Assembly (NCBI GenBank): GCA_046563655.1
Contig: CM102287.1
Span: 4,402,001 to 4,466,000 of the forward strand
From: Yuukianura sp. NJ FZ-2021
Taxonomy: Eukaryota
Direction of reading: 5' to 3'
Length of the DNA: 64,000 nt
Positions 1-18,200 of this stretch are shown piece after piece. How positions within the stretch are numbered: the stretch's first letter is position 1; every line of letters starts with the position of its first letter. Below the pieces are notes generated by a model. That model ran no database searches and was not told the DNA's origin. It saw only the letters and a program-made list of their open reading frames with translations. Position numbers and translations under genes: made by a program.

Positions 1-1412
1 TAATACATCGGCTACCACGGCTCCTCAGCCGTTTGGATCCACCACGACTCCAGCATTTGGATCCACAGTGCCAGCTTTTGGTTCCAGTGGAACTGCACCG
101 GCGTTTGGTACTCCAAATACTGGATTTAACTTTGGAGCTCAATCTCAAACAACGTCCAGTGCTGCCGCTGCCGGATCTACGACTGCAGGTTGGTTAATGT
201 TCTCAATTCAATTACCAGTTGATCCTCGCATCGTCGCATCTAAGTGAGAACTATTTTTATTTATCTATTTTTTTACTTTTTACAGTAACAAACAATACTT
301 CAGGATTTGGCGGGGGTATGCAACAATCGCAGTCAAATTTCGGCGGAGTAATGCAACAAACCCAGTCTCAGTCATCCCCGTTTGGAACTAATGTCAATAC
401 CACCACAACAACACCAGCAGGATTTAATTTTACTTCTACACAACCGACTACTGTTTCTACTGCGTCAGGATTTGGAACTTCAGTTCCAGCATTTGGTTCA
501 ACTACTCCAGCACCTGCGTTTGGTTCAACTACAACACCAGCACCAGCGTTTGGTTCAACTACAACACCAGCATTTGGTTCAACTACAGCACCAGCATTTG
601 GTTCAACTACAGCACCAACATTTGGAGGTGCAACAACGGCGCCTACGTTTGGGGCTCAAAACACCGGAGGATTTAACTTTGGAGCTCAGGCTTCGACAAC
701 CACTGGCCAAACAGCAGCCACGTCCTTGACGTCAGGTACTGAGCGAAATCTTGAATCCATTTGCTTCGTAATTTTGCTCTGATTAAGTTCATAATTGTAT
801 ATTATGTTTGTCTTTTCAGCATCAACCTTCGGAACTGGAACGAGTTCACCAGCACCAGCGTTTGGAAGTAATTCTACAACGGCTGGAACTGGGTCAACTT
901 TTGGTTTCACATCTACACCAACTACTTTCGCTTCTACAACTTCCCAGCCGTTTGGTTCTTCAACTCCAGCCTTTGGATCCACGGTGCCAGCGTTTGGTAC
1001 CACTTCACCGACACCGGCTTTTGGAGCTCCAAGTCCGAGCACAGGATTTAACTTTGGATCTCCAGCTCCAGTAACTTCTGCCACCACGGGTCCTACTTTT
1101 GGTGGATCATTTGGAGCACCACAACCACAAGCTACTACTGGATTCAATTTTGGTAGCCAAGCCACCTCCACGCCGCCAGCATTTGGTGCATCAAATCAAC
1201 AAGCTCCTTCAGCACCCTTTCAATTTGGAGCAACGGCAAACGTACCACAAGGGAGCCCAGGTTTGTAACTTTTTTTGTTGAAATTTTTTCATTAATTTAA
1301 TTATTTGTCTTTTCAAGCAGGATTTGCAGCGCAACAGCCGCAAATGTTTACGGTTGGCGGATCTTCTCCGTCAACTCGGCGTCCAATGGGTCGTGGACGA
1401 AGGTATCGCTAG
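1..1412 (+). CDS. FG-repeat nucleoporin, C-terminal part (Nup153/POM121-type); 5'-partial; exons <1-188, 286-735, 820-1260, 1321-1412
   Basis: All three introns are GT-AG and phase 1, giving a continuous frame. The protein is S/T/P/G-rich with many PAFG, FNFG and TFG motifs. It ends ...PQMFTVGGSSPSTRRPMGRGRRYR* (TAG 1410-1412), a basic tail like those of Nup153 and POM121. The last acceptor is a NAGNAG (AAGCAG 1315-1320). Confidence 0.85.
487..650 (+). repeat. Coding tandem repeat of 24-30 bp units encoding PAFGSTT(T/A)
   Basis: Repeated ccagcatttggttcaactac(a/t) units inside nucleoporin exon 286-735. Confidence 0.85.
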
Positions 1413-7666: not shown

Positions 7667-10600
7667 ATGGAACAACTGTACCTCCGAGCCTCTTCCGACA
7701 CGACGGTTGATTCAGACTATGTCAACGGAACGCTCGGCATGACCCCGCAACCCTCACCGCTCCCCAATATCTCCCGCAGTCCAGTTCCTGGAATCACATA
7801 CCGAAACCTCGGGAAAAGTGGCCTCAAAGTGTCCAACTTAGGCCTAGCAACATGGATGCTTGGAGCCGAGACTCCAGAAACACTGGAGAGTGTAGTGACC
7901 TTGGCCTACGACAGTGGAATCAATGTCTTTGACTTGTCTGAAGCCTACTCTGGCACAGCATGTGAAACTGAACTTGGGAAAATACTCAAACGACGCAACT
8001 GGAGAAGAACGTCCTACGTGATTCTAGTCAAAATTTATTGGACTTCAAAGTAAGGAGGCTGTGATTTCATTTCCGATCACTTTAGTGAAGCAGAACGTTG
8101 TGTAGAGGGCGGAAAGAAGCTTAGACTGGCAGGCCGTGTAATGGAAAAAGAGATTTAAAAAAAAGACGGAAATTCAATTTAAAATATTGTCACTCTGCCA
8201 ATTGTGTTAAGATGAGTTAAAGACTCGCTATTCAACTCAACACGTGGAATTTTAGTTCTTTTTTTCGTAACGCTGCGGGAGAAAAACACATTTCTTTCTT
8301 CAAAGAAAAAATTTATTTCGAAAAAAGTTTCAAAGTACTTACGATCCAAAGTAGCACAAATTTTGCGTTGCTGCACTTTGAAACTTTTTCGCTATTTTGT
8401 TGAAGTGACAAGTTGACACATTTGTCACGAATAAACATGCAGGAATAGTTACACTATTGAAAAGTTTTGGCAGTTGTTTTGAAAACATTCTTGAACAAAC
8501 AACAAACAGAATTTTTGGAAATGATTTAAATTATTTTATGATGATGTTTTGTGGTTTTTAGGTGTGAAGAAAGGGCCTTGTCTCGGAAGTACATTGTGGA
8601 CTCTGTAAAGAAGTCATTGGAACGCCTGGACTTGGACTTTATTGACGTTGTGATCATTCATAGAGCAGATTCCATGTGCCCAATGGAAGGTTAGTTCAAG
8701 AGTACTTCAACACTTCAATTGAACACTTCAATTTTATTAAACCATTTCAAAAGAGAGAAAGAATTTGGAAATTGAGTAATTTGACCTTTGACTTCTATTG
8801 CAGAAATTGTGCGAGCTATGACCCATGTGATAAGTAACGGTTGGGCAATGTACTGGGGAACAAGCAAATGGACACCCGTCGAAATCATGGAAGCGTAAGA
8901 AGCTACTTAATTTCAACTTTTATTGAACTTGTAAACTGCAAAAAAATTCGAAATGAAAATTGAGTTCAAAAATGGAAATGGGAATGAGTTGACAAAAATT
9001 TTATGAACTTTCTTTTAATGTTTTCTGTTACTTTTTTTTAATAAAGAAACGTGTATGCAAGTATTGAAGTTGATTTTTTTTTAATTTTGCAGATATTCGA
9101 ATTGCAGACAGTTCAACTGCATCACACCAATCGTTGAACAGGCAGAGTATCATTTCTTCTGTCGCGACAAGGCTGAGCTGTACATGGCCGAACTCTACAG
9201 CAAAATTGGTACGGGGCTCTGGGGATTCTGGGCTTCAGGGGAAGCGGACTTTCTCCGCTTTCACTGTCATCCATCACCTTCACCTGCTGACCCGACTACT
9301 CCTTTCCAGAAAGTCCAAATCTCACATTTCACTGTACTTCCGCATCAATTTGAGCCTAATGCTTCCTTTATCCCGTCCCCACCAACCTTCTCCAGGAAGT
9401 CCACTGACAGTCCTTATCCACTGTCCAAAATAAAATGACCCCATGAGTCATGTCACTTCGGAACATGATCACTCCCTTGTCACCCGTTTTCTGTTTCACA
9501 CGATGTGTCACCTAACCTAAAACTTAGTCGTCTGGCTTCATTTGTCCCATTTCTATCTTAGCTTAACGTTTTCTTTAATAAAGTCAAAGATTATCCTGAA
9601 GACACCTTTGTGTTTCAGGAGTTGGACTGACGACATGGGCTCCTGTGACGATGAACTTCAACAAATTGTTTGGCGGAAAGACGCCTGAAGATGCTCTCAC
9701 TTTTACCTTTAGAACTTCATTCAGAGTAAGATTTTTTCCGAAAGTGAATAAATTTCTAATTAAAATTGTGTGAAATATAGTAGTTTAAAGTTTAAACCTG
9801 TATTTTTTAAAGTATTTTTTAAAATTCAAAATAATAATTTTTTTTAAACTAAAATTGAAATTTTGAAAACTCATATTCAAGAAATGTCTTTTGAATGGAT
9901 TAATCCATCAACTTTTGCATCCATTCAAATTCAGCTTGTTTTGCGTTAGTTTGAAGAATTTGCAGCGTCTCGAATTGGCAAAAACGCTGCGTCTTTAAGC
10001 GTGTTTGAATAGGGCAGAGATTCCGAGTGCAAGTGGGATTTGAGATAGGGTAATGTACGGAGCAAAAAGGGCTTCCCCCCTCGTCCTTTGTTGTGCCGCC
10101 GAGGCGAGTGCCGGGAAAAAAAAAATAAAAATTGAGAGTGGCAGGGAAACTTTTGGAGCCGTACGATCCCCTTGCAGCTCCTGACACTTTTCAGAAGACT
10201 CCTCAATTTCACCATGTATTTTTTCTCTCTCAGAAAAATACAAAATTTAAAAAATTTTAAAATTCATATCTCCAAAACGAAATGTGTTAGAGTTATTTCC
10301 CTTCGCGAATAAATTCAGAAAAATGTGCAGAATTTTGCAAGGTGGAAATTTTGCAACTTTTGCAAAAACTCCAAACCGTTGGAAATTCCTATCTCGTGAA
10401 CGGAATGCATTAGAGAGCTAGAGCTAATCTCTTCGCGAATACACTCAGAAAAATGCAGAATTTTGCAAAGAAGATAATAGCGCTGGGAAGCAATTTGTTC
10501 GTAAGATATGAATTTGCAAAGTTGTTTCGAATTTTGGAATATTTTGTATGGAGATAGTTTGAATGGATGAAAAAGTTGAGGGATTAATCCATTCAAAAGT

Positions 10601-12081
10601 GGCCGCTTCTTGGCTCAACTTTTTCAGTCTGATGGTGGACTGCTGTTGTACTGATGGTGTACTGATGCTGTGCTGATGTTGTACTGATCGAAGGAATGAA
10701 TCAAAAAATGGTTCTGCTTCTCAAGCAGAACCATATTTCCGTTTTTATAAATTTCTAAAAATTTCAACTTTGTTGCAATTTCTGTGACCCTTTAGTCCGG
10801 TTCACGTTGCAAAACAACATTTCGCATAATTTGGTCCAAAAATTTTGCAAAAAACGCACCATCAAAATTTTGATGAAATTTGAAAAAAATGCAAAGACTA
10901 TAGTCTTTGCTTTTTTTCAAAAATCACCCAAGAACTTTATGTTCCGATTTGACTGTTTTAAAAATTTTTTAAATACTTCATGTCACTCTGAACTTAAACG
11001 CGAAAAGATTAGCTCTCAAATGCATTCCATTCTCGAGATATTAAATTTTAAAGTTTCAGAATTTTTGCAAAATTTTCTAAATTTGCACGGTGCAAAATTC
11101 TGCACATTTTTCCGAATTTATTCGCGAAGAAATTAGCTCTCTAGCACATTTCGTTCTGGAGATATGAAATTTCAAAGTTTTTAAATTTTAAAATTTTCTG
11201 AGAGAGATTTTGCATGGTGAAGTTGAGGAGTCTTCTGAAAAGTGTCCGGAGCTGCAAGGGGATCGTACGGCTCCAAAAGTTTCCCTGCCACTCTCAATTT
11301 TTATTTCTTTTTCCCGGCACTCGCCTTGGCGGTACAACAAAGGACGAGGGGGGAAGCCCTTTTTGCTCCGTATATTCCCCTATCTCAAATCTCACAAAAT
11401 CCCTGTTGCACACAGAATCTCTGCCCTATCCAAACACGCTTAAAGACGCAGCGTTTTTGCACAGTGAGATGTAATTTAATTAATAAATTATTTCACATAT
11501 TTTGTCATTTGCAGAAGAAGTACTCATCCTCTTACAGTTGGAGCAACGATGATGAAGGAACATGTTCCAAAGAGGTAAAACATGAAATTATATTAATAGT
11601 TAAAAAATGATTGTAAAAAAGCGTCATTTTTGAAATACTAAATTGGAAAACTGCTTCTTCTCTTTTAAATTTTGTTTTTGGTGAATTTTAGGCTTGGGGA
11701 AGATCTCTCTCCGTTGAAGACGGAAGTAACCAGAAGCTGCTTCATCAGAAACGAATTTGCAAAGAAATCGGAACCATGGCAGAACGTCATGGATTTTCTC
11801 TAGCTCAATTGTCAATTGCTTGGTGCCTCAAGAATAGCGCAGTTCAGTCAACCCTAGTTGGACCAACGTCGACCCAGGAACTACTCACGTTCCTTCAAGC
11901 TCTACAGGTACTATCAGTATTTTTTGAAAATCAAGAAATTATGATTTTAACTTTAATGATTTTCTGATTTCAGCTTATTCCAAAATTGGGAAGTGCCGTT
12001 ATGTTGGAACTGGAGAAAATTCTGGACAATCGACCAGCTCGTCCTCCAGCCGTTTCTACTCTGTCCTTAAATCAAAGATGA
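7667..12081 (+). CDS. Hk: Voltage-gated K+ channel beta subunit (Hyperkinetic/KCNAB, AKR fold), 402 aa; exons 7667-8049 (acceptor before 7621), 8562-8689, 8804-8894, 9093-9208, 9619-9725, 11515-11574, 11692-11907, 11974-12081
   Basis: Kv-beta signature motifs [84 protein letters not shown]. Splice phases are consistent and the CDS totals 1209 nt. The frame stays open upstream of ATG 7667 to the acceptor, so a longer N-terminus is possible. Confidence 0.93.
9878..10612. repeat. ~50-bp inverted repeat pair (9878-9929 / 10558-10612), MITE-like termini
   Basis: cttttgaatggattaatccatcaacttttgcatccattcaaa is nearly the reverse complement of tttgaatggatgaaaaagttgagggattaatccattcaaaag. Confidence 0.75.
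9978..11460. mobile_element. Large foldback/inverted repeat in an Hk intron: arms ~460 bp (9978-10437 and 10999-11460), spacer ~560 bp
   Basis: The arms are reverse complements of each other. The ORF track shows near-identical spurious peptides on opposite strands (9946-10215 minus vs 11214-11474 plus). Confidence 0.85.
10628..10688. repeat. Short degenerate ~11-bp minisatellite (tgtactgatgg-like)
   Basis: ctgatggtggac tgctgttgta ctgatggtgta ctgatgctgtg ctgatgttgta ctgat. Confidence 0.6.
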
Positions 12082-12273
12082 CAATCAACTCCCGCTCCTT
12101 CGTCAAACGTCCTCCAAAGGTCAACTTCAAATACACAAAATGTCACAACGACTGAGGGAGCGGGAGCCTCCGGAACGCAGCCAGAAACCATAGAGTATGA
12201 ACGTCAACCGCATCAACATCAACGTGTTGCAAGTCACTGGAATAACAGAGTTGCTGTTTGTAAGATGCAGTGA
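12079..12273 (+). CDS. Hk: Predicted stop-codon readthrough extension of Hk (X + 63 aa: QSTPAPSSNVLQRSTSNTQNVTTTEGAGASGTQPETIEYERQPHQHQRVASHWNNRVAVCKMQ*)
   Basis: TGA-CAA-TCA context, a downstream stem-loop, and a frame open to TGA 12271-12273. Confidence 0.65.
12089..12166 (+). promoter_or_regulatory. RNA stem-loop 3' of the Hk stop codon (candidate readthrough stimulator)
   Basis: ctcccgctccttcgtc (12089-12104) pairs with gactgagggagcgggag (12150-12166): 16 bp with one G-U and one bulge. Confidence 0.7.
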
Positions 12274-12809
12274 AACTTACGTTTAACCTTAAGGACAACC
12301 AAGGTCAACGAAAAAACTTCCATAAAAATGAACACCTCAAACCCATATCCAAACAATCCAGAACGTCAACACCATCATAGTTGCTTGTATAAACAATGTT
12401 ACGTTTCGTTGAAATTTCCTACTTACTATAATGTGTTGAGTATTGTTGTTGAACGTTTTGACTTTGAAGAAGCTTCATTGTTGAACGTTTTTTTAAACAA
12501 AGGTGAATACAATTCAACATTAGCTTACACGCTTCACGCCTGTACCTTCTCGTTGATTTCATAAAATAAGGAGACGCAGACCCAGTTTGTTTTTAAATTA
12601 AAAGTTTAAACAAGTTGAATGAAAATTTGAGTTTGAATTTAAAATTTTGTTGTTTAAGATTTAATAGAAGTCAAAATTCTCCTGCTTGTTTTGAGGAGTC
12701 AGTTGAAGGGGATAACTCTACTAATATAATTTTTGTTCTAAACAATTTGTGGTACAGTTAAGCTTAATTAACTAATTAACTAAAATCCTAATTAAGTTTT
12801 AGGCTTGTT

Positions 12810-12886
12810 AATAAAAAATGATCAATCGGAAAAATTTTAAAGAAGTAAATTACGTACATTACAATCTATTTGATTCTCAAAATAAA
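12810..12886 (+). terminator. Candidate Hk poly(A) signals
   Basis: AATAAA at 12810-12815 and 12881-12886. Confidence 0.45.
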
Positions 12887-15258
12887 ACTTCCACTTTTCT
12901 GTTTTCTAAATTTATGTACACATGAATTTTTTAAAACATCAACTTAACTGTTTTTAAAAAACAAAATGAAAACCATCAAACACAAGAATTTTGTTCCATT
13001 TTTTGTTTGGCAACGCATTTTCCATTTTGTTCTTTGTCTGGAAGCACGTTTCTCATTTCATAAAGTTTTGGCACAGGAATTCACGTTCTTTTGAGCCTTA
13101 AATTAACTTAATTCTCTTTACATTTGATTAATTAAGTAATTAAGTTCTAACAATTAATTCTGGACAGGACGAAGGGAAGGAAAAAATGCACTGGAATGAA
13201 ATTTATGGAAAGTTAAAAGAATAGGCCGAATTTAAATGCATAGCTGAGGACGAGGAAGGTTTTGAATCTGCTAATTGTAAAATTGCGATTTTTGAAAATT
13301 GCAAATTACGAATTTTGAAACTTGCATTGCAAACTTTTGTTAAGCATGGAAAAAGTTACAGAGAGAAAAGAGAGGACGAGGCCTTTGAACGAGTAGAAGA
13401 GAGTGAAAGTGAACATTGTTAAATTTTGTAAATGTTAATTACAGTTAATTAGTAACACTTAATTTTTCCTTTGCTAATTAAATTGTAGTTAAGTTTCTTC
13501 TTAAAGTATTTTAGTACATTGTTATTTAAAATTACGACTCTGAAAAACGTCTGGCATCACATTCCTTGTAAGGACTATATTAACAATATTGTCTCAAGTT
13601 TTTTGCAATTTCCTCATCTTTGTTCAATTTTTCGAAAAAGTGCTGGGGGAGGGGAGGGAGGGGTGCCTTAAAATTCTAAAATAAAAATTTAAACTAAACT
13701 AACACCTAACTAACTAACGTAATTAATTTTTGCTTTTTAAAAATATGGTAACTCTTGATTTTGAACTAAAACTTTTCAAACACTAGAAAACAAAAAGCCA
13801 TGCAACATGCAAAAGTGTGCAGATTTTTCCAAAGAAAGTATTTTGCATTTGTACAAATTAAAACGAAAGGCCCATTGCAATCCGCTCATGATTGTTCGAT
13901 TTCTTAAAAACTTTTCAAAATTGCACTCTTGAACTAAAATGAGTATTTTGTTTTAAAAACTTTGTTCGCAAAATTTCAAAATTGACGAGAATTTCTGTTA
14001 AGTTCGTTATGATTTTTTGTATTGCCGCAATTGTATCATTTGTTCTCTGACTAGAACAGAAGAGTAGTGATTGCTCGGTAACTTTTTGACAAAAATCAGC
14101 AATTTTGTTGATTATAAAAGACTTAAAAGTTTTGTTCTAAAAAATGTCAAAATTAAAAATTTCGCTTTCAAAGTGCTCGTTGCTTTAAAAACTGAACTAA
14201 AAAAAAACCTCATTAAATACATCGATCATTGTCAATCTTCTAAAAGTTTTGGTTGGCACTAAAGAAGAACAAAGAAAAGTTGAAAAAGTGTTAGAAAAAA
14301 AAATTGAAAAACAAATGAAAAAGTGAGTTTTTGTGCAATTTTGTGCAGAAAGGGAGGAGCGAAGTCCCACGAAATGCATGAGGGTTCATCAGATCCTTGC
14401 TAAACTTTTTGAGTATTTTGGCAGGTACGTTTTGAAGAATGAGTTTGTTTTAAAACATTTCTTTTTAGAAAATAGCAAATCTAAAAAATTTGTTCTACAA
14501 AGAGAGCATTTTTTGACGTATGACGAGATTCAAACTTGTCCTAAGACCTTAGCGTTTTAAAAATTCAAAATTTGAAAAAACCAAAACCAAACCTTGTTCG
14601 TTGTTTAAAACTTCGATGCTTAAGAGAAAAGCAATTTCGTAATTTTCCTTAAAGTAGTTCGTTGTTTTGTAAACCTTTTTGGTCTGTCATGGTTAGACGA
14701 CCTTTCGTTGTACGTCATACGTTACACGCAATACGTTACACGTTTTACGCCCTACATTGTACGCATGCTTAACAGCAGTTCACGGACGACGCTTAATACA
14801 AATCCTTTGGCACAATTACAACACAAACTCTACCCTAATTTCTTAAAAATCTTGTTCTAAAAAGTCTATTTGAACAGTTTTTAAACTTTTGAAACAGTTG
14901 GGGAGTACGTGTTAGTCATTCTTTCGTGGAACAGAACAGGAATTGAAAGTTATAGGCAACAGGAAAGTTTGAATTTTCAAAACCTTCAAAATTTCAAAAT
15001 TCCTCTTGCCGATTCACTTCATCTCCCTTAAGTACCCACTTGGACTGGACGAGTATTTAGGCCTTGTAAACTTTACGTTCTGAGTTCCCTGCATCTTCTT
15101 CATTTTTGGCAAAATGCAGAAGTTAGGAATCAGGCTTAAGACTAATATTTAACTACCTTTCTTGCTTAATTAACTAAGAATTAATTAAGAAACGAAGGTG
15201 AAGAGAATAGTTAAGTAATAAAACCCATTCCATGACGCAGTCTCTGACTATAAAACGT

Positions 15259-18200
15259 TCAGTTTCGATTGTTCGGACTTGGTTTGCAGTACTGGTAGCG
15301 ATGGTTCATGTGCTGACTGTAGGAACCGGAATGGGAAAATCGCTTGCCACACTTATTGCACTGGAACGGTTTCTGCCCAGTATGCAGACGAAGGTGTTCA
15401 GTGAGATGGTGCTTGTGCTTGAAGGCCTTTTCGCAAGTGTTGCATTTGTAAGGTCGTTGACCTGCAAAGAAATTTTGAAATTCAAACAGTTCTCCAAAAA
15501 ACTAAGTACAATTTGAAATTTTCATGAATTTTAGAAAGTACCCGAATGCTCATATTTGTGGCGTGCAAGAGAGCTCTGTTTGTTGAACGTTTTTTCACAC
15601 TGATCGCAGGAGAATTGACCAATTTCTTCCGGTTGGCCGTTAGTCATGGGATTATTTGAAGGCGGAGACGTGAGCCCTGCCATTTGCTTGGGAGCCTTTC
15701 GCTTCTTGGTGGGTCTAGCCCCACCGAGGAACAGTGGATGGTGGTCCCCATTTTCACTCATTGTTCCCTGGGAGAGGAGACTCAGTGGAGAGTGGTTGAA
15801 TCCATTCGTTCCGTACTCGAGTGGACTGCTGGACGGCACTGGAATCAAGCTTGACAAACTCGGCGGCAGGATTGGGCCGAGAGAAACGGCTGGTGACGGG
15901 GTTCGGCCGTCGTAACCATTCGGCCGATGATTTTGGCTGCCGAAGAGAGAGACTGGTGACGGAGAATTCGGTGGCTGGGACAAGATTCGGGCTAGGCGCG
16001 AAGTTGAACTAGTGACCTGGATCGGTGACCCGGTCTTGCGATGTGGACTGCCTTCATTTACCAAGCGAAACAACGTTGGTGAGCTCATTGCAACGTTCGT
16101 CTGTGGGCTAGGGCTTGGTGACGCTTTCTAAAAGTAAAATTAAAATGCAGTCAGAAAAAGAAAAATCTTTAGTTTGATCTGTAGTGAGGCTTTATATCTT
16201 CAAAAAAGTTGAAAAATTTCTTCGTACCAAATTCAGTGGCTCATCGTCAGCATCAGAAACGTTAACGTCCGAGTCGACGTGACACGGTTCTGGTGAATTC
16301 GACGGTGTTGATTTTTTCGTCGAAAGATCCAGCGGTTGTTCTGAATGTCGCTTCAAGTCTTCCAGAGGGCTCAGTGGAGCCATTGACCAAGGTTGGATGG
16401 GCACAGGAAGAAGAGAATTGATCTTTTGACCTCCCTCTTGCTTGCTACTGAACAAATGAATCCCGCCATTGAGATTCGTCGACTGCGTCGGTCTTCCTTC
16501 ACGCCTGTCCCTTGCTCTCGAATTCTGGAACCAAACCTGCTGAGAAAAAGTACGAGGTGAGAAGTGTAGGCGGAGAAAGCATGAATCTTAGTAGTTTTTT
16601 TTAGGTAAGGTTAGGTGAACAGGAGAAAGTTCCTGGAAGGTGTACCTGAACCACTCGAAGAGGTAAGACCAACTGTTGAGCCAAAGCCAGAAGATGTTCT
16701 CGCCGTGGCCGTGGATCCAGACCGTAGTGGTGCCTGAGAACGCTCAGTTGTGATTCAGAAAACAACGAACGCACACGCACCTTCCTCCCCTCTTCACTAT
16801 TTTCACCTGACACGTTCGGCTCACCTGAAACAATAACGAAACTTTTCAAAATTTCAGTTTTCAAATTACTTTTTGAGTAAAAACTGTTTCAAAAAACAAA
16901 AATTCACCTAGGATCCAGTCTCCCATACCTGAGTCCCCTCCGTCGTTTTCCGAACTGGAGTGGCGCTCGGGTCCGTCTTCGTCACCACTCATAAACTGGT
17001 CACCACTGACCGCTCGAATTGCTTCACGTGACTTTTCTTCTTCAAGTCGTTGCTGCTTCTGCGTCATTTCCAGTCTGGCAGCGAGCCCTTCAATTCCATT
17101 TTTCTTCTTTCTGCGTTCCTCTTCTTCGTTACTCATTTTGACATTGTTGTTGTTATTCGGTTGCTCGAATTCCAGTCGTTCCTCGAGTGCCAGCTTTAAA
17201 GGAATCGGAGACGTTCGGTCATGTTCGTATCCATTTTTGAGGTGACGAGACTGCAGAAACTGACGTGTCACGGATGCATTTACGGTGTCCAGAATTCTCT
17301 GAACTTTGTCTCCAACGCTTTCGTCGTTTTCTTCGAGCTTTCTCTTGCGGCGGTCACTACGCCCGTCATCTGAAACGTCGCTTCTTGCTGGTGACCTTGA
17401 CCTGGATCTGGACCGTGACCTCACAGCTCCGTTGACCTTGCCATGTACTTCCATGTTCAGCAGTGGCCCTTCTTCTGAGTCGAGTGACCCCAAGTGACGG
17501 AATGGAGAGTTCTGAGAAAGTGAATTGAAGAAGTTGTTCATGTTGAGGACGTAGGGATTGGCTGCGAGAAATGGATGGAAGTTTACTGGACCTGTTCAAT
17601 AAAAAATTAAAATTTTGAAAAAAGTTCAAAAAAGCCAAAATCAGTTTTATTGTGCCAATGTCAAACCTGGGGGTAAGAATGGGGGTGAAGTTGCGGCCGG
17701 ATAGAGATGCGGTTCGTTGCTACTTGGACTGCTTGTGAAATTATTGTCAGGAGGGTCAGTGTTGACCTGCTGGGTCAACTTGGCTGAGAGAAGTGGATGA
17801 GTTCCAAATGGAATGGAGTCTGTAGTACTAAAGTTTCGATGTATTCCCTTCGATGCTGTTGAGTTATTCGTTGTTGACGTATTTGTGTTGATTGAACTGG
17901 GATTGGATCCTTCGAATCTGCGTTGTGGAGAGACTGCTGCAGTGGGGCCCTTGTCTCCACCCTTCGCACTCCCACGGTGGCTCAACTGCAAGACAAAAAG
18001 TGTTTTAATTAACCTCTTCTAAACGGAAGTTCGTGTCATGTCATTTTCCAAATCTTTCTACAAGATCTCCGACTTTCTCAAAACTTTTTCCTTCCGCCGA
18101 AACTTTCACACCCGAACTTTTCAACTTCGGGATCAAAATCTCAATCTCATTGTCACCTCCTTTCCCCAAAACTTTCACCAATTGAGAAAATATTAGCATT

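What the first reader, a model, noticed from the sequence alone, without database searches (positions are those of the whole stretch)
12079..12273. Programmed stop-codon readthrough of Hyperkinetic (UGA-CAA-UCA plus 63-codon extension)
Seen: the Kv-beta C-terminus (...[13 protein letters not shown]) ends at TGA followed by CAA TCA. The same frame stays open for 63 codons to TGA 12271, with coding-like GC content that falls after the second stop. Known: UGA-C is the leakiest stop context, CAR-YYA is the tobamovirus-type readthrough signal (CAA-TCA matches exactly), and readthrough is abundant in insect and crustacean neural genes. Inference: a functional C-terminally extended Kv-beta isoform (466 aa versus 402 aa) that ordinary annotation would miss.
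Basis: partly seen in the sequence, partly recalled or inferred. Interest (0 to 1): 0.88.

Follow-up and report, generated by a model that had tools for sequence, protein, structure and literature searches.

The report
Leaky stop extends potassium-channel beta subunit
In a springtail-like animal the potassium-channel helper gene Hyperkinetic ends in a weak UGA stop followed by 63 more codons that related species have kept as protein, so some ribosomes probably read on and add a tail ending in a likely lipid-anchor signal, as was already predicted for the fruit-fly version of this gene.

Summary
An 8-exon, 402-codon Kv-beta/Hyperkinetic gene ends at TGA 12079-12081, followed by CAA TCA and 63 open codons to TGA 12271-12273.

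The open frame alone is weak evidence: 63 open codons arise by chance in about 2-5% of cases. The case rests on relatives.

- **DNA relatives.** Three metagenome contigs, one of them intronless, keep the block CAAAGA-TGA-CAR-TCA, an in-frame extension of 70-80 codons and the same tail.
- **Protein relatives.** Two further predicted proteins show the same layout.
- **Coding signal.** Synonymous sites are saturated (pS 0.65) while pN is 0.27. In the last 20 codons pS is 0.83 and pN 0.04 (p = 2e-7). The signal is specific to this frame.
- **Boundary.** Similarity ends at the second stop.
- **Rivals.** No SECIS match, no conserved ATG and no conserved splice donor.
- **RNA structure.** In 3 of 4 DNAs a stable stem begins 8-10 nt after the stop.
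- **Tail motif.** All six tails have Cys at the fourth-last position, which looks like a CaaX box. Farnesylation is inferred, not shown.

Readthrough is the best explanation (0.8). Drosophila Hk is already a predicted readthrough gene whose 3' stem-loop boosts readthrough in a reporter, so this is a new member of a known kind. No RNA or peptide data were available.

The parts
7667..12078 (+). Kv-beta / Hyperkinetic-like coding sequence of 402 codons in 8 exons: 7667-8049, 8562-8689, 8804-8894, 9093-9208, 9619-9725, 11515-11574, 11692-11907 and 11974-12078
   Evidence: tblastn of P0003 and P0004 on the window. Splice sites were read. The joined frame has a single stop, at its end, and gives 402 aa. 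Pfam Aldo_ket_red PF00248 matches exons 1 and 7. The best named hits are Folsomia candida Kv-beta-2 (78%) and Orchesella cincta (65%).
12073..12087 (+). Conserved 15-nt stop context CAAAGA-TGA-CAA-TCA
   Evidence: 14 of 15 positions are invariant in 4 of 4 DNA sequences. The only change is CAA to CAG in L005. Synonymous sites elsewhere are saturated.
12079..12081 (+). First, leaky stop codon TGA, followed by C
   Evidence: It is TGA in the window, L004, L001 and L005. P0096 and P0097 read W here, which I infer to be TGA.
12082..12087 (+). CAA TCA, a match to the CARYYA readthrough hexanucleotide
   Evidence: The motif and its activity 3' of UGA in human cells (about 15% in the OPRL1 context) are described in PMC4132726 (passages read).
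12089..12104 (+). 5' arm of a long-range RNA stem (+11 to +26, counting the U of UGA as +1)
   Evidence: It forms 16 bp with one bulge, duplex dG -31.5 kcal/mol, matched by 0 of 300 shuffles. The MFE z-score is -3.2.
12150..12166 (+). 3' arm of the same stem (+72 to +88)
   Evidence: The core CCGCUCC / GGAGCGG is kept in the window, L004 and L001.
12082..12270 (+). 63-codon readthrough extension, mostly rich in S/T/P/Q, with several conserved islands
12211..12270 (+). Most conserved block of the extension, the last 20 codons: HQHQRVASHWNNRVAVCKMQ
   Evidence: Window against L004: 9.0 synonymous differences of 10.8 sites, against 2.0 non-synonymous of 49.2 sites, Fisher p 1.9e-7. This part of the alignment is ungapped in all 6 sequences.
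12259..12270 (+). CaaX-like box CKMQ, with Cys at the fourth-last residue
   Evidence: Cys is at -4 in 6 of 6 sequences, although the extensions are 63 to 87 residues long. Lipid modification is inferred.
12271..12273 (+). Second stop, TGA, which ends the extension
   Evidence: It is TAA in L004 and L001 and TGA in L005. DNA similarity ends here.

Best explanation
The gene is a Kv-beta (Hyperkinetic) orthologue of a springtail-like hexapod. Its mRNA ends the 402-codon reading frame at UGA, in the context CAAAGA-UGA-CAA-UCA. A stable stem follows, with its 5' arm starting 8-10 nt after the stop.

A fraction of ribosomes decodes this UGA with a near-cognate tRNA and continues for 63 codons. The product is a 466-residue isoform.

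The added tail is a variable linker that looks disordered and carries short conserved islands. It ends in a conserved 20-residue block with Cys fixed at the fourth-last position.

Shown here:
- the sequence layout;
- its conservation;
- a protein-coding substitution pattern that ends at the second stop;
- the conserved stop context;
- the predicted stem in 3 of 4 species.

Inferred:
- that translation really continues, and at what rate;
- that the stem stimulates it;
- that the terminal box is farnesylated and tethers this cytoplasmic beta subunit to the membrane. I give this last step about 0.4.
For: 1. **Layout.** The layout is confirmed.

2. **Relatives.** L004, L001 and L005 came from one metagenome scan that gave 7 loci, 3 of which cover the C-terminus.
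   - Each has TGA, then CAA or CAG, then TCA.
   - Each has an in-frame extension of 70, 70 or 80 codons with no stop.
   - L001 holds the whole 400-codon CDS without introns, and the TGA and the extension are contiguous with it.
   - P0096 and P0097 show the same layout, with W at both stop positions.

3. **Coding signature**.
   - Window against L004, 63 codons: pS 0.65, pN 0.27, dN/dS 0.22, Fisher p 4.6e-6.
   - All 6 pairs give dN/dS 0.19-0.53.
   - Last 20 codons: pS 0.83, pN 0.04, p 1.9e-7.
   - The same alignment read in the two shifted frames gives pN/pS 1.09 and 1.33, against 0.41 in frame.
   - Differences by codon position are 22, 14 and 32 of 63.

4. **Boundary**. Alignment z-scores are 3.2-18.7 in the extension and 6.2-19.8 in its last 60 nt. 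They are -2.1 to 2.2 in the 150 nt after the second stop. The other two forward frames hold 1-9 stops in every species.

5. **Stop identity.** The first stop is TGA in 4 of 4 DNAs, while the second stop varies between TGA and TAA.

6. **Stem**. Duplex energy is -31.5 in the window (0 of 300 shuffles as good), -21.1 in L004 (2 of 300) and -22.7 in L001 (5 of 300).

7. **Precedent.**
   - PMC13170385 section 23 lists Drosophila Hk among genes predicted to read through from conserved coding sequence in the 3' UTR. Its stem-loop gave 4-5 times the readthrough of the dfr288 reporter.
   - PMC5100048 passages report that readthrough is abundant in Pancrustacea and that TGA followed by C is enriched in ancient cases.
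   - PMC4132726 passages report that CARYYA placed 3' of UGA is leaky in animal cells.
Against: - There is no direct evidence of translation. No RNA run was listed, and neither ribosome footprints nor peptides could be reached.
- Only four DNA sequences and two predicted proteins are available. None has a species name, and two of the contigs come from one sample.
- The codon alignment was built on the protein in the tested frame, which favours that frame. Its gapped middle part is uncertain. The ungapped last 20 codons and the shifted-frame control reduce this concern but do not remove it.
- L005 lacks the long-range stem (119 of 300 shuffles do as well). The stem is therefore either not essential or is replaced by something else in that lineage.
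- The three species that have the stem mostly share the same arm sequences, so covariation support is minimal.
- The extension found no match in two protein-library searches made with it alone.
- The Drosophila Hk extension could not be seen, so homology with it is untested.
- The CaaX reading rests on position and on recalled substrate rules. One tail ends in His, which is an unusual last residue for such a box.
Confidence: 0.8

Rival explanations
1. A-to-I RNA editing turns UGA into UGG (Trp) in some transcripts. The extension would then be translated from edited mRNA rather than by ribosomal readthrough.
For: It would also produce a conserved TGA in DNA with a selected in-frame extension. 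Assembled contigs such as L001 would not reveal partial editing. In the L001 fold the UGA is paired.
Against: The predicted stem starts at +11 to +14 and leaves the UGA unpaired in the window and L004. The L001 pairing is not conserved. The conserved CAR-UCA hexanucleotide matches a known readthrough context. Drosophila Hk is treated in print as a readthrough gene.
Confidence: 0.07
2. The UGA encodes selenocysteine.
For: The stop is UGA in 4 of 4 DNA sequences.
Against: No SECIS family appeared in the Rfam scans at E up to 10. These covered L001, L004 and L005 whole (5 matches, none SECIS) and window 11900-15500 (7 matches, none SECIS). No Cys lies beside the UGA, as a redox motif would have. 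The context matches a readthrough signal. The L001 and L005 contigs hold only about 250 and 420 nt after the second stop, so a distal SECIS there would not have been seen.
Confidence: 0.03
3. An alternative splice removes the stop codon, so the extension is an ordinary alternative coding end.
For: Anopheles gene models continue after ...STLALR with other sequence, most likely by splicing. GTAAGA at 12260 looks like a splice donor.
Against: L001 is intronless and keeps the TGA and the extension contiguous with the CDS. No GT in the 50 nt before the stop is conserved in position or resembles a donor in the window, L004 or L005 (read). The residues on both sides of the stop (NQR or TQR before it, QS after it) are conserved. 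The GTAAGA is GTAAAA in L004 and is simply the Cys-Lys codons.
Confidence: 0.04
4. The stretch is untranslated 3' UTR. The open frame is chance and the conservation reflects an RNA element.
For: 63 open codons arise by chance in 2-5% of cases. A strong RNA stem lies inside the stretch. No library protein contains the extension.
Against: The frame is open in 4 of 4 species despite length changes, and the indels come in whole codons. Synonymous changes dominate only in this frame. The most conserved part is the last 20 codons, which lie outside the stem, and conservation ends exactly at the second stop.
Confidence: 0.04
5. The downstream frame is translated on its own, by reinitiation or internal initiation.
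For: None specific.
Against: There is no conserved ATG. The window's extension has Met only at its second-last residue, and the Met residues of L001 and L005 do not align. Conservation runs right up to the stop, with QS as the first two codons in 6 of 6.
Confidence: 0.02

Closest known systems
Drosophila melanogaster Hyperkinetic (Hk), a predicted stop-codon readthrough gene
   Same: It is the same gene family (Kv-beta). Readthrough was predicted from conserved coding sequence after the stop. A stem-loop lies within about 60-80 nt after the stop and raised readthrough 4-5 fold over dfr288 in an S2 reporter (PMC13170385, sections 22-23).
   Different: This is a springtail-like animal. Homology of the two extensions, and whether the fly tail also ends in a Cys box, are therefore untested.
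Ancient TGA-C readthrough genes of Anopheles and Drosophila (Jungreis et al. 2016, PMC5100048)
   Same: The stop is TGA followed by C. The extension is under weaker purifying selection than the main ORF, and its length varies between lineages (passages read).
   Different: That work compares flies and mosquitoes. My one search combining readthrough, stop codon and Collembola found 1 paper, which is on mitogenomes.
Tobamovirus-type CARYYA readthrough signal
   Same: The hexanucleotide after the stop fits CARYYA in 4 of 4 sequences, as CAA UCA or CAG UCA. Its activity 3' of UGA in animal cells is documented (PMC4132726).
   Different: The viral cases use UAG and need no downstream structure. Here the stop is UGA and 3 of 4 sequences add a stem.
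Stem-loop-assisted readthrough of Drosophila dfr/vvl and headcase
   Same: A stable structure starts about 10 nt after the stop (dfr: +10 to +58; PMC13170385 abstract and section 22).
   Different: Here the stem closes a loop of about 45-65 nt instead of forming a compact hairpin, and it is absent in L005.
Readthrough extensions that add a targeting signal: Drosophila Syx17 (predicted farnesyltransferase signal) and fungal or mammalian PTS1 cases
   Same: A C-terminal sorting or lipidation signal exists only in the read-through isoform (PMC3840789, section 16 and Table 2).
   Different: The host protein is a potassium-channel beta subunit. The box is conserved across 6 sequences rather than predicted in one species.

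Membership tests
Kv-beta / Hyperkinetic (aldo-keto reductase-type potassium-channel beta subunit) | Aldo/keto reductase domain | tested here: met
   PF00248 matches exon 1 (E 5e-7) and exon 7 (E 6e-7), both above the curated cut-off.
Kv-beta / Hyperkinetic (aldo-keto reductase-type potassium-channel beta subunit) | Closest relatives are animal Kv-beta proteins, and the C-terminal ...RPP..STL... end is shared | tested here: met
   94 proteins scored E <= 1e-10, and the best named ones are arthropod Kv-beta-2. The C-terminal motif was found in 65 of the 95 stored proteins, 55 of which end 3 residues after it.
Programmed stop-codon readthrough (comparative definition) | In-frame open extension with a protein-coding substitution pattern that ends at the next stop | tested here: met
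Programmed stop-codon readthrough (comparative definition) | Conserved leaky stop codon and 3' context | tested here: met
   TGA-CAR-TCA in 4 of 4 DNA sequences, while the second stop varies.
Programmed stop-codon readthrough (comparative definition) | Other routes excluded (Sec, splicing, own start, editing) | tested here: inconclusive
   No SECIS was found. The intronless L001 keeps the stop. There is no conserved ATG. Editing cannot be excluded without reads.
Programmed stop-codon readthrough (comparative definition) | Ribosomes or peptides observed beyond the stop | not testable with these tools
   No RNA run was listed.
Structure-stimulated readthrough | Stable RNA structure starting about 8-10 nt after the stop | tested here: inconclusive
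   It is present and better than shuffles in the window, L004 and L001 and absent in L005. There is almost no covariation to test.
CaaX prenylation substrates | Cys exactly four residues from the C-terminus | tested here: met
   6 of 6 sequences: CKMQ twice, CKTH, CRMQ, CKMQ and CRMQ.
CaaX prenylation substrates | a2 and X residues accepted by farnesyl- or geranylgeranyltransferase | not tested
   No predictor was available here. That Met or Thr at a2 and Gln at X are accepted is recalled, and His at X is doubtful.
CaaX prenylation substrates | Isoprenoid attached to the protein | not testable with these tools
   This needs a biochemical assay.
Selenoprotein | SECIS element in the 3' UTR | tested here: not met
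   No SECIS family appeared at E <= 10 in the four loci or at gathering score in the whole window.

The most novel reading that the evidence does not exclude
Readthrough of Hyperkinetic is an ancient hexapod recoding switch, older than the split of springtails and insects. Its purpose would be to make a minor, farnesylated and membrane-tethered form of the otherwise cytoplasmic Kv-beta subunit. The same Cys-box tail would then lie hidden behind the stop in insects. A possible trace is the odd Cloeon dipterum model P0017, which ends ...KNVAFCSLQ. The tail might also be present in Drosophila Hk.
Probability: 0.25. Interest if true: 0.7.

Novelty: new member of a known kind. Interest (0 to 1): 0.5.

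Why it matters
Hundreds of insect genes are predicted to be read through, but very few extensions have a known function. This case offers a conserved and compact set of signals: UGA-CAR-UCA, a spacer and a stem. It also offers a tail whose one fixed feature is a Cys four residues from the end, which makes both the mechanism and the function directly testable.

If the tail is lipidated, readthrough would set how much of a potassium-channel beta subunit is anchored to the membrane. That would be a new way to tune excitability.

The finding also extends evidence for Hk readthrough from flies to an early-branching hexapod lineage. Ordinary annotation stops at the UGA: every springtail model seen here ends there.

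Tried and rejected
- **RNA evidence.** No RNA holder was listed for 11690-12600, so read laying could not be used.
- **Own genome.** No whole genome is held for this window.
- **Protein searches with the extension alone.** The word-index search of longer proteins gave 18 candidates and none scored. The full-library phmmer gave 1 hit, P0001 (E 6e-4). It is a repeat protein unrelated to Kv-beta and I judged it spurious.
- **Rfam.** There were 0 matches at gathering score over the window.
- **Splice donor at 12260.** GTAAGA was rejected as a donor: it is the Cys-Lys codons, it reads GTAAAA in L004, and conservation ends at the next codons.
- **Anopheles long isoforms.** These continue after ...ALR (7 of the 95 stored proteins). 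They show no visible likeness to the springtail tail and their Cys is not at -4.
- **Mayfly model P0017.** Its end resembles two islands of the extension, but hhalign against the 6-sequence profile aligned only 8 columns (E 0.42, probability 0.14%). It is a lead, not evidence.
- **Genome-contig scan with the tail motif.** Of 20 pattern matches, 1 passed tblastn. It lies in a Bacteroidales MAG, is surrounded by stops and is not at a protein end, so I treat it as chance.
- **DNA alignment for structure.** MAFFT did not put the 3' arms in register, so no RNAalifold or pair count was made. Stems were compared per sequence instead.
- **Literature that could not be seen.** The fly Hk stop, context and extension therefore remain unseen, and those supplements may bear on the novelty claim.
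- **Novelty searches.**
  - Readthrough + CaaX + stop codon found 25 papers. None of the 12 listed describes a readthrough-made CaaX box, judging by title or abstract start.
  - Hyperkinetic + prenylation found 10 papers, none relevant by title.
  - Stop codon readthrough + prenylation found 18 papers. Of these I read passages of Dunn 2013 only.
- **Earlier findings of this scan.** There were none for this genome, this sequence or these words.
Full report
**1. What is in the window**

The last exon of a Kv-beta gene reads ...[19 protein letters not shown] and ends at TGA 12079-12081. CAA TCA follows. The same frame runs for 63 sense codons (12082-12270) to TGA 12271-12273.

I rebuilt the gene from tblastn matches of two relatives and from the splice sites. 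It has eight exons between 7667 and 12081 and encodes 402 residues, with a single stop at the end.

Pfam finds the aldo/keto reductase domain in exons 1 and 7. The best named protein matches to a 90-residue piece of exon 1 are Folsomia candida Kv-beta-2 (78%) and Orchesella cincta (65%), ahead of insects at 65% or less. The animal is therefore probably a springtail or a close relative, and its own protein is not in the library.

GC is 0.47-0.49 over the extension and falls to 0.30-0.34 just after the second stop.

**2. Is the open frame more than chance?**

On its own it is not. The probability of 63 sense codons is 0.006 to 0.048, depending on the composition assumed. In the window, 5.3% of the 6207 stop-to-stop frames are at least this long. 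The stretch is poor in stops in other frames too. A genome would hold hundreds of such tails by chance, so the question had to be settled with relatives.

**3. Relatives**

No genome and no RNA run were available. Searches with the extension alone found nothing credible.

A scan of metagenome contigs with the relative P0004 gave 7 loci, and three of them cover the C-terminus.
- **L001** is the 1761-nt contig that encodes P0004 without any intron.
- **L005** is genomic and has the last intron.
- **L004** is a 14.5-kb genomic contig and is the closest to the window.

All three have ...CAA AGA TGA CAA/CAG TCA..., followed by 70, 80 and 70 sense codons in frame (L001, L005 and L004 in turn).

A profile search then found two predicted proteins from assembled reads, P0096 and P0097. 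They run ...STLALNQR-W-QSLAARP...SWNQRVPAC[KR]MQ-W-.... A W at both stop positions most simply means that the gene caller read TGA as Trp. This is an inference, because their DNA could not be fetched.

All six tails start with QS. All contain an R-S-x-S island and an [ST]-[IM]-[DE] island, both read. All end in H-x-x-RV-x-x-S-[WF]-N-x-RV-x-x-C-x-x-x.

**4. The extension evolves as protein**

I aligned the four DNA-derived extensions as protein and back-translated them.

Nei-Gojobori counts for the window against L004, over 63 codons:
- 28.8 synonymous differences on 44.0 sites (pS 0.65);
- 39.2 non-synonymous differences on 145.0 sites (pN 0.27);
- dN/dS 0.22, Fisher p 4.6e-6.

All six pairs give dN/dS between 0.19 and 0.53.

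In the ungapped last 20 codons the window and L004 differ at 9.0 of 10.8 synonymous sites but at only 2.0 of 49.2 non-synonymous sites (p 1.9e-7).

Reading the same nucleotide alignment one or two bases out of frame gives pN/pS of 1.09 and 1.33, against 0.41 in frame.

For comparison, the 35 codons of the canonical last exon give pS 0.80 and pN 0.13. The tail is thus under weaker but real constraint, as described for ancient readthrough regions (PMC5100048, passages).

Nucleotide similarity is far above shuffles in the extension (z 3.2-18.7) and in its last 60 nt (z 6.2-19.8). It vanishes in the 150 nt after the second stop (z -2.1 to 2.2). The other two forward frames carry 1-9 stops in every species.

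One caveat: the alignment was guided by the tested frame, and its gapped middle part is uncertain.

**5. The stop and its surroundings**

The 15-nt block CAAAGA-TGA-CAR-TCA is invariant at 14 of 15 positions in 4 of 4 DNAs, although synonymous sites nearby are saturated. The first stop is always TGA. The second stop is TGA or TAA.

The hexanucleotide fits CARYYA. According to Loughran et al. 2014 this motif gave about 15% readthrough when placed 3' of the OPRL1 UGA in human cells, and it works equally well with UGA and UAG (PMC4132726, passages).

Folding the 100 nt from the stop gives a long-range stem in three species.

| Sequence | 5' arm | 3' arm | Pairs | Duplex dG (kcal/mol) | Shuffles as good | MFE z |
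|---|---|---|---|---|---|---|
| Window | +11 to +26 | +72 to +88 | 16 bp, one bulge | -31.5 | 0 of 300 | -3.2 |
| L004 | +14 to +24 | +90 to +100 | 11 perfect | -21.1 | 2 of 300 | -2.7 |
| L001 | core +13 to +20 | core +71 to +78 | 8, plus an inner helix in the MFE fold | -22.7 | 5 of 300 | -2.0 |
| L005 | none | none | none | -14.2 | 119 of 300 | -0.6 |

The shared core CCGCUCC / GGAGCGG includes fourfold-degenerate codon positions, which points to constraint at the RNA level. Because the arms are nearly the same in the three species, there is almost no covariation to test.

**6. Rivals**

- **Selenocysteine.** No SECIS family turned up, even at E up to 10, in L001, L004 and L005 or in window 11900-15500. 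The short contigs would miss a distal element.
- **Splicing.** The intronless L001 keeps the TGA and the tail contiguous with the CDS. No donor-like GT is conserved before the stop (read). The GTAAGA at 12260 is just the Cys-Lys codons, and it reads GTAAAA in L004.
- **Own start.** There is no conserved ATG.
- **Variant code.** TGA also ends the tail in the window and L005, exactly at the conserved end, and the 402-codon CDS holds no internal TGA.
- **Editing of UGA to UGG.** This cannot be excluded without reads. However, the UGA is unpaired in the folds of the window and L004.

**7. What the tail may do**

The middle of the tail varies in length (63 to 87 residues in total) and in sequence. 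The end is fixed, and in 6 of 6 sequences the Cys lies exactly four residues before the stop: CKMQ, CKMQ, CKTH, CRMQ, CKMQ and CRMQ.

A cysteine held at that distance from the C-terminus while the rest of the tail changes length is the mark of a CaaX box. I recall that farnesyltransferase accepts Met or Thr at the third position and Gln at the last, and that farnesylated proteins with Lys at the second position exist (CENP-E, CENP-F). None of this was tested here, and His as the last residue is doubtful.

My reading, at about 0.4, is that the rare long isoform is prenylated. A flexible linker would then tether the cytoplasmic beta subunit to the membrane.

The idea that a readthrough tail can carry a prenylation signal is already in print as a prediction for one fly gene, Syx17 (PMC3840789, section 16 and Table 2).

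**8. Comparison with what is known**

Kansara et al. 2026 (PMC13170385; abstract and sections 22-23 read) list Drosophila Hk among genes predicted to read through from conserved coding sequence in the 3' UTR, citing Jungreis 2011. They show that the Hk stem-loop, moved into a dfr reporter, gives 4-5 times the readthrough of dfr288.

Jungreis et al. 2016 (PMC5100048, passages) report that readthrough is abundant across Pancrustacea and that TGA-C is enriched among ancient cases.

The present case is therefore a new member of a known kind: the same gene, the same type of signal and a new lineage.

What I did not find in print:
- readthrough in springtails (1 paper, off topic);
- a link between Hk and prenylation (10 papers, none relevant by title);
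- a conserved Cys box made by readthrough in a channel subunit (25 papers, 12 listed, none by title or abstract start).

Whether the two tails are homologous stays open.

One lead remains. The mayfly model P0017 leaves the normal C-terminus early and ends ...SMCPPGGA...KNVAFCSLQ, which resembles two islands of the springtail tail. A gene predictor may have spliced around a leaky stop. The profile comparison is not significant, however.

**9. Verdict**

My confidence in programmed UGA readthrough is 0.8.

The finding is solid but not surprising to a specialist, since the fly gene is already on the lists. Its value lies in the clean, conserved signal set and in a tail with a testable function.

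Noticed in passing
window 198-1268 (+): Two long open frames are rich in FG and S/T/A/P repeats (...FGSTTTPAPAFGSTT...). They look like an FG-repeat nucleoporin gene upstream of the Kv-beta gene.
   Followed up: no
window 15531-18018 (-): Large open frames on the minus strand hold a C2H2 zinc-finger stretch ([25 protein letters not shown]) and a homeobox-like [11 protein letters not shown]. This suggests a zinc-finger homeobox (zfh/ZEB-like) gene converging on the Kv-beta 3' end.
   Followed up: no
window 9978-10420 and 11010-11460: A set of nested inverted repeats (arms of 64-120 nt, 83-92% complementary) lies in the long intron between exons 5 and 6. It looks like a foldback or MITE-like insertion.
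   Followed up: partly
P0017 (Cloeon dipterum model): This alternative mayfly Kv-beta model drops ...VRPPMISTLALR and ends ...SMCPPGGA...KNVAFCSLQ, with Cys at -4. It may be a predictor's detour around a leaky stop. The likeness to the springtail tail is not significant.
   Followed up: partly
P0054, P0056, P0058, P0059, P0060, P0065, P0068 (Anopheles models): Seven Anopheles Kv-beta models continue after ...STLALR for 37-429 residues. Five share ESGVPCGAESPKEEDISMGEEQKESQK. These are probably alternative 3' exons and show no visible relation to the springtail tail.
   Followed up: partly
P0096 and P0097: These predicted proteins from assembled reads carry W at both positions where the relatives have stops. 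They also start inside an intron. The contigs were apparently translated with a TGA=Trp code, which is an artefact that happened to expose the extension.
   Followed up: partly
L008 3001-3039 (Bacteroidales MAG): HWNQRVAVC occurs by chance in a bacterial contig, among stop codons and away from any protein end.
   Followed up: yes
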